The notes under the pieces: model-generated
Databases searched by the model: none
What the model saw: only the letters and a program-made list of their open reading frames with translations
Told to the model about the DNA's origin: nothing
Assembly: GCA_964016885.1 (NCBI GenBank)
Contig: OZ024758.1
Location: 2,728,001 to 2,792,000 of the forward strand
Reading direction: 5' to 3'
Origin: Eledone cirrhosa
Taxonomy: Eukaryota
DNA length: 64,000 bases
Translations under genes and position numbers: made by a program
Shown: positions 20,184-22,953 of the stretch, in pieces
Position numbering within the stretch: the stretch's first letter is position 1
How the letters are laid out: each line of letters begins with the position of its first letter

Positions 20184-21821
20184 ACAGTGAATATATAAAT
20201 ACATAAGCAAATATACCAAAGCATACATAGAAAAGAATTACCTATATGTCTAACTGTACACATATACACACATATATACACGATATTGATGTGTTCATAT
20301 ATATACTAATACACAGGAACGTGAGTATATAGAACAGACGAACTTTACATACAGTATTATACACACATATAATACAATTCAGTGTTTAAGCTACATAACA
20401 TTTAAAAAAAATCCAGTTTTCATTACTCTTTTATTCATTTCTCATGCAGCCTGCACCGAACAAGCAGCTAATCTTGTTCGAAAATTTGTTAGTTTCCTTC
20501 AGAATTTTCTCCATATATGAACCTATTGTTCCGAAATGTATTATTACAAAAGTTTATATTTTTCTAATTTTGTTTCATCTCAGAAAGATAAATTTCAAGT
20601 AAATTCAATACATAAAAATTCTTAACATTAAATCTTAGACTAACTACAATTTTCAGGAATTCATAAATTCTTTCTATATGTCAATGTAGCAGCCTAGTAT
20701 CAGATTCTTCGTTGATGCAAGTTATTTTTTATTACACCAATAACGCTATTGGGAAAGACACCACCCCTTACTCTAGTATAGAAGAACTGCCTGGAACTTT
20801 ATTTGACCGCAGCTATTGCGCACGCACACGCGCCTGATAGAGTATTTCAGTTGTACGCAGACGGTAAACAGTCGTCCCTCTCCGACACAATTTTTTCCCC
20901 TCGAAAAACCCCCAGCTGATGGATGCGAAATCCGAAATATAGGGACTATTAAATCACTCTGCTTCAGGATAGAGAGCTGCCGCCCTTTTAGTTCTGAGTT
21001 CAAATCCCGCCGAGGTTATCTTTCCCTTTCATCAATATGGGGTCCATAAAATAAAGTACCTTCTTTTCCTCCAAGTTGCTGGTCTTCTGCCAAATGTAAA
21101 AACAATTATTATAAAACTCTCTCACTATTAATATCTATCATACTTGGAGCAAATCAAGTAAATATATAAGTAAAAGTAACGTTAGTTACTTCTACTTATA
21201 TATATATTTATTTATATATATATTTATATATATACAATCTCAAACGGGGAGTACCATGAGAAATGAGGCAAAATGGGGAGATTTTATTTGAAGCCAATAA
21301 CTAATATAATTTTACTTATTCCTGTAAATACGGGAGACAACTCTAGAGATATTTCTGTATTACGAGACTACCATAGATGTATAGATTTCAATGTTACATG
21401 GCAGAATATTAATAGCAGATTCGGAAAATAATATATGAGATTTTCCATTGAAATGTTTCAGACGCCATTTTATACTATAATATTAAGCTTAATATGAGTC
21501 TAACTATATATTATATTGAAGTAAAAAATATGTATCTATATAATAGAAGAATTGAACATACGATGTATCTCTGTTTGCGTGATCTTAGAATTTAGAGAAC
21601 GCTGTCTATTGTGTTGGAAAAGGGTTTCAACTAATCTACACTTAAACAGCAGCCATGTTGTCTAAAATAACTTCCACTACATTTCTTTGAATAGAATACT
21701 GTATAACAAAGACAATACATTTTAACCCTTACATAAGATATTTCACACACACTCTCACACATATATACATACATACACACTCACACTCTCACACACAAAC
21801 ACGCGCAAACATATATAACAC

Positions 21822-21877
<56 letters not shown>

Positions 21878-21907
21878 ATTATGTAATAAACAACATAAGG
21901 CAATTAT

Positions 21908-21965
21908 TCCATTTACCAGTGGTTTCTTAAAAGCAAAAGGTTTTGCTTTCAATCCTCAGAATGAA
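21908..21965 (-). ncRNA. Type I hammerhead ribozyme motif (mirror copy of 22038-22095)
   Basis: Exact reverse complement, in the left arm. Confidence 0.75.
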
Positions 21966-22037
21966 AAATCCTGGTTTGTTTATTGAATATGGATTCTAAA
22001 AATTTAGAATCCATATTCAATAAACAAACCAGGATTT

Positions 22038-22095
22038 TTCATTCTGAGGATTGAAAGCAAAACCTTTTGCTTTTAAGAAACCACTGGTAAATGGA
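22038..22095 (+). ncRNA. Minimal type I hammerhead ribozyme motif
   Basis: Stem I UUCAUU/AAUGGA; CUGAGGA 22044-50; 11-bp stem II UUGAAAGCAAA/UUUGCUUUUAA; GAAA 22077-80; stem III ACCA-C-UGGU; GUA triplet, predicted cut after 22089. Confidence 0.8.
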
Positions 22096-22316
22096 ATAAT
22101 TGCCTTATGTTGTTTATTACATAATAATAATAATTAAGCTCTGTTGCTTACATAGAGCACTCTTTTTTCCTGGACTTTTCCGATGGAATTACTTCATTTA
22201 CACACATATATATATATATATATATACTGAGTGCGAGTGCTTCGTGTAAACCTACATCGTGTGTTGGCCACCGCCATAAATTCGGTTTTACTAACCTGCA
22301 CTTGTATGTATGTATG

Positions 22317-22347
<31 letters not shown>

Positions 22348-22953
22348 GGTCAGGTCACCAGTTGGTGCTACTGGTAACATGTATCCCAGTACAACCGGTT
22401 TCATGGTCGGGTCGTTGGCGACTAAACTGGCAACCCCACCAAGGTTTATTGGTGAGGAGGGTGACTTGGGACATCCTGCAGGACTAAAAACAAAACCTGT
22501 CAAAGAGCAAAGGAGCTCTTAAGAGTCAATAGCCATCCAAAATCACCGGGAGAGATGACTCCTTAGCCTATGTCAAGGCAGAATTCTAGGAGAAGGAAAA
22601 CTCTGATATAACACCTGCAACTCTGATGGTATCCAATGATGTTGACTTGTTCTTCTTTTTGGTAAATATCATCTTGGTTAAGAGAGTGGGACTGGCTTTG
22701 TGCAGTGCCTTTGCTCACTATAAAAGCTTCACGGCACATGCATTGCTTTATATCTGGAGATCGCTCTGCACTTGTCGTCACCTGGTACCATGGGCCCAGC
22801 ATTGTGTCAATAATTGTCACAAGTGTAGTGTTTGTACCAGAGTTTTCAAGTCGCTGGCTGGACTAAAATGTCACATTCGTTCAGCGCATCGGTAGGGGTT
22901 CTCCTACATGGATACAAAGTACTGGCCGTACTCGAAAACGAGTTGGCAGCCAC
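22348..22953 (+). mobile_element. Non-autonomous, internally deleted RTE-like LINE derivative (~600 bp) inserted in (TA)n
   Basis: Second copy at 62270-62854. The 3' part encodes a C2H2-like finger HKCSVCTRVFKSLAGLKCHIRSAHR* followed by a hairpin actcgaaaacgagt. No RT present. Confidence 0.65.

What the first reader, a model, noticed from the sequence alone, without database searches (positions are those of the whole stretch)
21871..22200. Second, unrelated perfect palindrome that also carries a hammerhead on each strand
Seen: 130-bp exact arms around AA. The right arm reads UUCAUU-CUGAGGA-(11-bp stem II)-GAAA-CCACUGG-UA-AAUGGA. Outside the catalytic core it shares no evident sequence with the 7414 element, yet the layout is the same: 5' ends meet at the centre, one arm has a ~70-bp extra tail, and (TA)n flanks it. 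A truncated relative at 42733-42890 has the arm end and the tail in opposite orientations. Two independent palindromes both containing a complete hammerhead are unlikely by chance or through a random assembly error (inference).
Basis: partly seen in the sequence, partly recalled or inferred. Interest (0 to 1): 0.85.

Follow-up and report, generated by a model that had tools for sequence, protein, structure and literature searches.

The report
Mirror-image stub of Penelope jumping gene
This palindrome is a short insertion of a young Penelope-like jumping gene, whose end normally carries a hammerhead ribozyme motif and occurs thousands of times in this genome, so the object is ordinary, but its junctions suggest the two mirror halves were likely copied separately from a capped RNA, which bears on an open question about how these elements insert.

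Summary
The palindrome (21871-22132, 130-bp arms), the type I hammerhead motif (predicted cut after 22089) and the 68-bp tail are real. They are the terminal repeat (pLTR plus tail) of a Hydra-clade Penelope-like retrotransposon. The right arm recurs at 100% identity as direct repeats about 4.27 kb apart around a 710-aa RT/GIY-YIG ORF with the Hydra motifs. A 28-nt hammerhead word has 3,813 exact matches. An inverted 5'-truncated copy, a one-sided tail, (TA)n targets and hammerheads on opposite strands are all published PLE features. The 7414 element is a second PLE family. The less ordinary part is the junctions. 25 of 25 head-to-head pairs have exactly one tailed arm. Either arm can reach further 5'. 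Short arms stop at one G 200 nt from the tail end, with an added G in 53 of 58 purine cases. This best fits twin priming from two RNA start sites running off a capped 5' end. Ribozyme activity is untested, and there is no excess of junctions at the cut site.

The parts
21871..22002 (-). Tail-less inverted arm: pLTR sequence from -199 (1 nt short of the inferred RNA start) to start site A (-68), joined to (TA)n
   Evidence: 132 of 132 nt match the full-length element
22003..22200 (+). Tailed arm: pLTR from -197 to start site B (0)
   Evidence: 40 of 40 scored genome hits 100% identical over 198 nt; direct repeats around the ORF in L031-L033
22037..22096 (+). Type I hammerhead motif, predicted cut after A22089; stem III is a self-complementary ACCA-C-UGGU, predicted to work as a dimer
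   Evidence: activity untested
21907..21966 (-). Mirror copy of the same hammerhead motif
22133..22200 (+). PLE 'tail', the stretch between the two recurrent 3' ends (sites A and B)
   Evidence: tail definition in PMC8557442 and PMC11167929
21836..21870 (.). (TA)n target, left side
22201..22226 (.). (CA)/(TA)n target, right side
7330..7752 (.). Same kind of stub from a second PLE family: tailed arm on - (7330-7582), tail-less arm on + (7584-7752), hammerhead core at 7653, predicted cut after 7707
42739..42890 (.). Sister-family stub: tail-less arm on - (42739-42834, first 5 nt of the hammerhead core lost) joined to a tail-only arm on + (42826-42890); almost no overlap between the arms

Best explanation
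This is a protein-less stub insertion of a young Hydra-clade Penelope-like retrotransposon, made of two head-to-head copies of its hammerhead-bearing terminal repeat in a (TA)n run, and the two halves were likely made by twin priming. Shown: identity with the element's pLTR, two fixed 3' ends 68 nt apart, one of each per insertion, and a pile of 5' junctions at one G with an added G. Inferred: the element's RNA starts at that G (316 nt before the ATG) and is capped. The RT-endonuclease nicks both strands of a (TA)n target. One nick primes cDNA at site B (tail end) and the other at site A (tail start). When this happens on the 5' pLTR copy of the RNA, both cDNAs run off the cap after about 200 and 130 nt, and their 3' ends are joined, giving this palindrome. 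The hammerhead is the element's ordinary passenger ribozyme; it is predicted to cleave poorly unless dimerised, and it does not appear to set the ends of these copies.
For: Identity: (3 of 4 fetched close pairs are direct repeats 4,253-4,288 nt apart around the ORF; intact in L033), Hydra motifs RWK, DKT, CxCX5C, CxxC, CxH, 3,813 exact matches and 0 for the reversed control. One event: 25 of 25 head-to-head pairs among the first 100 matches have one tailed and one tail-less arm (two are one duplicated locus, one tail is cut short); a 16-nt direct repeat flanks L138. Both arms first-strand: the tail-less arm reaches further 5' in L165, L175, L179, L183 (35-540 nt), and the tailed arm in L148, L152, L164, L170. 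In L179 and at window 42739 the tailed arm is tail only and ends at site A. Capped end: 58 copies have a purine before the G at -200, 53 G and 5 A, against 439 templated pyrimidines; 30 of 30 examined are 5' junctions. Of 40 palindromes, the added G is on the tailed arm only in 12, the tail-less arm only in 6, both in 3, neither in 19. Literature: a purified PLE protein cuts and extends both strands and starts RT at two internal sites that bound the tail (PMC11167929); an extra G marks capped 5' junctions of L1 and twin priming explains L1 inversions (PMC11702581).
Against: Many palindromes have both arms ending within 10 nt of each other away from the G, including a 2.5-kb-arm case (L159); snap-back predicts this directly, while twin priming needs a shared broken template or joining at self-complementary microhomology. 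One-sided deletion after insertion could also shorten either arm. Among 31 tight palindromes the tailed arm is longer more often (15 against 8, with 8 equal; 20 of 51 pairs dropped). The RNA start and cap are inferred from DNA only; an RT that adds C at any template end would give the same G. In the 7414 family the added-G signal is weak (6 G of 15 junction arms). Rfam does not recognise the hammerhead, and Pfam and PDB give no hit for the ORF.
Confidence: 0.65

Rival explanations
1. Same PLE stub, but made by snap-back: one cDNA primed at site B folds back at its 3' end, primes its own second strand, which stops at site A; the hairpin tip is then opened and trimmed.
For: Near-symmetric centres at many positions, up to 2.5-kb arms; tailed arm longer in 15 of 31; snap-back is seen with R2 proteins (PMC11371274 passages); self-priming was proposed for PLE palindromes (PMC3846280 passages).
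Against: Needs later one-sided deletions of 35-540 nt to explain L165, L175, L179, L183 and window 42739, and for 6 sister-family copies with different junctions (6 of 9 shown, loci selected by likeness to 42745-42890). Added G on the tail-less arm alone in 6 of 40. Solo tail-less copies that begin at the added G (L201, L226). Gives no reason for the fixed stop at site A.
Confidence: 0.27
2. A distinct palindromic, two-ribozyme element (an ambisense viroid-like or retrozyme-like RNA) that is transcribed, self-cleaves on both strands and spreads as a unit.
For: At least 40 near-identical palindromes of this size; complete hammerhead on each strand; animal retrozymes are reported to derive from PLEs (10.64898/2026.07.22.740005, abstract).
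Against: Centres differ from copy to copy while arms stay 98-100% identical, so each palindrome is built anew; arm lengths run from under 100 nt to 2.5 kb; a read-through transcript is predicted to fold as one hairpin (-220.6 kcal/mol) that hides both motifs; no tandem array; no excess of junctions at the cut site (10 of 22 against 9 of 18 at a control position).
Confidence: 0.04
3. Long-read fold-back chimera or assembly artefact.
For: No laid contig spans this locus; perfect palindromes are a known long-read artefact (recalled).
Against: The two arms end at different, element-specific sites and have different unique flanks; the pattern repeats in 25 of 25 pairs; a target duplication flanks L138; older palindromes carry mismatches between arms.
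Confidence: 0.02

Closest known systems
Hydra clade of C-terminal EN+ Penelope-like elements (Craig et al. 2021, PMC8557442), e.g. Hydra-1_Obim and Penelope-13_HM
   Same: RWK, DKT, CxCX5C linker, CxxC and CxH, (TA)n target, type I hammerhead near the 3' end. Hydra-1_Obim has the same stem III form (acca-N-tggt) and, by eye, shares long ORF motifs. Penelope-13_HM is listed with an inverted 5'-truncated copy and a hammerhead on each strand.
   Different: A family not among those listed in the Hydra sheet as far as the hammerhead sequences show: unit 4.25 kb rather than under about 3 kb, with a long microsatellite-rich 3' region; tail 68 nt rather than 30-40; a second hammerhead-like motif with G17 behind the stop codon.
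PLE minimal/dimeric hammerheads (Cervera and de la Pena 2014, PMC4209133)
   Same: Type I motif in the pLTR, short palindromic stem III, mostly solo copies genome-wide; pairs 100-700 bp apart on opposite strands already noted.
   Different: U-A rather than G10.1-C11.1 closes stem II; stem II is 11 bp; activity not tested here.
PAc (Poseidon, Anolis) in vitro mechanism (Frangieh et al. 2024, PMC11167929)
   Same: Two internal RT start sites bound the tail; AT-rich target; both strands extended; hammerhead cleavage not needed.
   Different: Other clade; that paper (main text read) does not address how inverted copies form or a capped 5' stop.
L1 twin priming (Ostertag and Kazazian 2001, as described in PMC11702581)
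   Same: Second target end primes on the same RNA; head-to-head join; extra G at full-length 5' junctions.
   Different: In L1 the second priming site lies next to where the first cDNA ended; here it is a fixed site and the two cDNAs usually overlap, which yields a true palindrome.
Non-LTR retrozymes of animals
   Same: Short, non-coding, type I hammerhead, PLE-related.
   Different: Those are tandem head-to-tail arrays; this is a head-to-head stub rebuilt at each insertion.

Membership tests
EN+ Penelope-like element | Single ORF with RT and C-terminal GIY-YIG endonuclease | tested here: met
   710-aa ORF L033:2166-4298 with FDIVDFYPSI, YRDDG and VVYEA...YVG motifs; 1,342 homologues. Pfam and PDB gave no hit, so the assignment rests on motifs and on by-eye likeness to the published Hydra alignment.
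EN+ Penelope-like element | pLTR direct repeats / partial tandems flanking the ORF | tested here: met
   L031, L032, L033
EN+ Penelope-like element | Inverted 5'-truncated copy and one-sided tail | tested here: met
   25 of 25 pairs; tail is 68 nt, longer than the 30-40 nt in PMC8557442
EN+ Penelope-like element | RT phylogeny with PLEs and telomerase | not tested
   No tree built; no named reference proteins were held as usable sequences
Hydra clade | RWK motif and DKG changed to DKT | tested here: met
   RWK at 37, DKT at 114
Hydra clade | CxCX5C linker; CxxC and CxH beside the conserved E and N; no CCHH | tested here: met
   CSCRKPDEC 555, CSLC 658, CPH 689; no conserved CCHH seen by eye in alignment A1
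Hydra clade | (TA)n insertion and canonical hammerhead | tested here: met
Hydra clade | Generally under 3 kb | tested here: not met
   Repeat unit 4,253-4,288 nt; the paper gives this as a tendency, not a definition
Type I hammerhead ribozyme | Conserved core and three stems | tested here: met
   In 85 copies N7 varies in 19, the other six positions of CUGANGA in 0-3 each (the 3' half was fixed by the search word)
Type I hammerhead ribozyme | Covariation in stems | tested here: inconclusive
   Almost no variation within this young family; between families in this genome stem I and stem II are replaced while pairing is kept; no formal covariation statistic run
Type I hammerhead ribozyme | Match to Rfam hammerhead models | tested here: not met
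Type I hammerhead ribozyme | Self-cleavage | not testable with these tools
   Needs an in vitro assay
Non-LTR retrozyme | Tandem head-to-tail units each with a hammerhead | tested here: not met
   Head-to-head pair, not an array; 1 short direct pair among the first 100 matches (L192)

The most novel reading that the evidence does not exclude
This family records in vivo how Penelope-like elements build their head-to-head repeats: a two-site twin-priming reaction in which each target strand uses its own fixed start on the RNA, and priming on the 5' pLTR runs off the cap like a strong-stop cDNA, stamping out hammerhead palindromes of fixed size. The added G maps the element's transcription start to the base, and a conserved G17 second hammerhead may act as a non-cleaving dimer partner.
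Probability: 0.55. Interest if true: 0.5.

Novelty: new member of a known kind. Interest (0 to 1): 0.3.

Why it matters
As an object it is ordinary: a PLE stub. Its value is as a test set. Craig et al. 2021 name the formation of tandem/inverted repeats as unresolved, and Arkhipova et al. 2013 proposed self-priming on an antisense template. A very young family with hundreds of identical copies, an intact ORF, two fixed start sites and a cap-like signature gives base-level predictions (RNA start, two priming sites, strand use) that can be tested directly. Four searches for PLE twin priming, cap/extra G, palindrome/tail or structures listed no paper whose title or abstract start makes this case; the library lacks most subscription papers.

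Tried and rejected
Rfam at gathering and at E up to 10: no hammerhead family. Pfam (E 0.1) and PDB (E 0.01) on the ORF: no hit. The repeat finder on the whole window was swamped by microsatellites. No PLE ORF remnant in the window itself (tblastn); no tRNA. Sequencing runs: no RNA holder listed, which says nothing on expression; contigs of 4 runs (2 studies) hold the family and a few fold-back joints with other centres, but none spans this locus. Hypothesis that copies start at the hammerhead cut: not supported, 10 junctions of 22 against 9 of 18 at a position 12 nt upstream (only junctions with a pyrimidine before the site are seen). Hypothesis that the centre is a splice acceptor: the junction pile is at the G 6-7 nt before the nearby AG, not after it. 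The heterodimer energy used a 9-mer shifted by one base and is not used. One search used one young reference, so older subfamilies were missed there; searches replaced it. Search of earlier findings by sequence and by place gave nothing.

Full report
Observation. The sequence at 21600-22500 and an exhaustive palindrome scan confirm 130-bp perfect arms at 21871-22132 and 169-bp arms at 7414-7752. The right arm holds a complete type I hammerhead motif: stem I of 7 bp, CUGAGGA, stem II of 11 bp, GAAA, stem III ACCA-C-UGGU, and A22089 as the cleavage nucleotide. A strict descriptor finds only the two arms in the window and nothing in 60 local shuffles (it misses the 7414 motif, which has a bulged stem II). 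The hammerhead fold is within 0.8 kcal/mol of the best fold of 22020-22122 (-19.2 against -20.0), whereas the whole palindrome folds as one hairpin of -220.6 kcal/mol. Rfam finds no hammerhead family.

What it belongs to. The right arm plus tail (22003-22200) has 1,741 candidate places in the 3.0-Gb own genome; 40 of 40 scored are 100% identical. A 28-nt word from the hammerhead has 3,813 exact matches and 0 for the reversed control; a looser hammerhead pattern has 5,142. Of 4 close pairs fetched, 3 are direct repeats 4,253-4,288 nt apart around one long ORF. It is intact in L033 (710 aa), has an early stop in L032 and is in two frames in L031. Pfam and PDB give no hit, but 1,342 homologues were found, and the protein carries RT motifs and every motif that Craig et al. 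2021 give for the Hydra clade of Penelope-like elements: RWK, DKT, CxCX5C, CxxC and CxH (section read; positions; alignment). Their supplement lists Hydra-1_Obim with the same stem III form, and Penelope-13_HM with an inverted 5' copy and a hammerhead on each strand (part 2 read; passages). No tree was built. I did not identify the host.

The other two elements. The 7414 arm has 228 candidate places. In 7 of its 30 fetched loci (L037, L044, L048, L049, L053, L054, L059, plus a weaker L061) the C-terminal part of a related ORF lies nearby at 28-54% identity, upstream on the same strand in L044, L049 and L059, with the CxCX5C and CxxC motifs in L044. It is a second PLE family with no nucleotide likeness to this one. 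The 42739-42890 element belongs to a sister family that keeps the core, stem I and stem III but has a wholly different stem II. Its left arm runs from site A 95 nt upstream, its right arm is tail only.

What is already known. An adjacent inverted 5'-truncated copy, a tail at one end and (TA)n targets are standard PLE anatomy (PMC8557442 passages; PMC3846280 passages). Hammerheads sit in PLE pLTRs, have short palindromic stem III, cleave weakly and mainly as dimers, and pairs on opposite strands 100-700 bp apart were noted in 2014 (PMC4209133, parts 1-2 of 4).

How the palindrome is made. Positions count from the tail end (22200 = 0). Among the first 100 of the 3,813 matches (all on one contig, not chosen by shape) I counted 25 head-to-head pairs within 8 kb and 1 tail-to-tail pair. 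All 25 have one arm ending at site B (0) and one at site A (about -68 to -76) (L138 and L142 are one duplicated locus, L157 has a cut tail). Among the 47 remaining loci examined, 11 have an inverted partner, 10 of them with the same one-tail pattern and 1 complex. L138 is flanked by a 16-nt direct repeat (none seen in the 4 others examined, which sit in (TA)n). So one event makes both arms. Either arm can reach further 5': tail-less longer in L165 (about 540 nt), L179 (132), L183 (56), L175 (35); tailed longer in L164, L148, L170, L152. A tail-only arm cannot have been the template for a longer tail-less arm, which argues for two first-strand cDNAs. This fits the in vitro behaviour of the Anolis PLE protein, which cuts and extends both strands, starts at two internal sites that bound the tail, is predicted to be a dimer, and does not need hammerhead cleavage (PMC11167929, parts 1-2 of 4).

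Why 130 bp. The 30 close relatives of this palindrome examined have centres that differ in detail but cluster at one G at -200 (selected by likeness, so not a frequency). An unselected count supports a real stop there: 58 copies have a purine before that G, 53 G and 5 A, against 439 with the templated pyrimidine (G against A p = 3.5e-11; both arms of some insertions are counted). All 30 of the 58 that I examined are 5' junctions, not read-through variants; 14 G cases are tailed arms and 13 tail-less. Among 40 palindromes the added G is on the tailed arm only in 12, the tail-less arm only in 6, both in 3, neither in 19. An extra G at full-length 5' junctions is the mark of a capped template in L1 (PMC11702581 passages). 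The G follows a pyrimidine and lies 316 nt before the ATG, as a transcription start would (inference). The window copy stops 1 and 3 nt short of it. In the 7414 family junctions also gather at one base, but the added G is in only 6 of 15 junction arms, and the query began there.

Against this reading. Many centres are symmetric away from the G, including 2.5-kb arms in L159. In 31 tight palindromes the tailed arm is longer in 15, equal in 8, shorter in 8 (20 of 51 pairs dropped, mostly for mismatches to the young reference). Snap-back synthesis is documented for R2 (PMC11371274 passages), and later one-sided deletion could shorten either arm. The cap is inferred from DNA alone. I put the PLE identity at about 0.95 and twin priming at about 0.65.

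The hammerhead. In 85 copies N7 varies in 19 while the other six positions of CUGANGA vary in 0-3. There is too little variation in the family for covariation; between families the stems are replaced with pairing kept. Stem III pairs with a second copy of itself around a C-C mismatch (-8.2 kcal/mol), as for dimeric hammerheads. Copies do not start at the cut site more than at a control position (10 of 22 against 9 of 18), in line with uncut RNA being the template. In this stub the two motifs are on opposite strands, so they cannot form a dimer in one RNA, and a read-through transcript would be a long hairpin. No function of the stub itself is indicated.

Earlier AI notes on other genomes reached similar readings for PLE stubs; they are leads, not support. 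Supplements of the other papers were not read and may bear on the mechanism. Verdict: real, a new family of a known kind, ordinary as an object, moderately useful as evidence on the PLE insertion mechanism.

Noticed in passing
L033:4700 (402 nt after the stop codon); L032:4494-4560: Full-length elements carry a second hammerhead-like motif, a diverged copy of the first, with G at the cleavage position in 16 of 17 such rows among the 100 listed (counted by eye). G17 is usually not cleaved (recalled), so it may be a non-cleaving dimer partner or a decayed duplicate.
   Followed up: partly
L159 (G000:C1:2204500-2210400): A 4.9-kb palindrome, 99.3% self-complementary, with arms ending 10 nt apart inside the ORF.
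   Followed up: partly
window 7376-7395 and L032:1926-1945: The 7414 tail holds, in reverse orientation, a stretch like one in the 5' UTR of the 21871 family (GCACTCTACAGTTT); GAGCACTC also sits in the 21871 tail. Unexplained; possibly a protein-binding motif.
   Followed up: no
L138 and L142 (G000:C1 34.75 and 35.99 Mb); L141 and L144: The same insertions with near-identical flanks occur twice about 1 Mb apart: a recent segmental duplication or an uncollapsed haplotype.
   Followed up: no
L076, L082, L140, L161, L029, L072, L112, L114, L005, L054: Further unrelated type I hammerhead motifs turned up in flanks of fetched loci, pointing to several more PLE families in this genome.
   Followed up: no
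L032:7133-7606 (-): Fragment of another GIY-YIG-type PLE ORF right beside the element.
   Followed up: no
window 7190-7290 and 7840-7920: tRNA-like SINE-type fragments flank the 7414 element by eye; ARAGORN calls no tRNA.
   Followed up: partly
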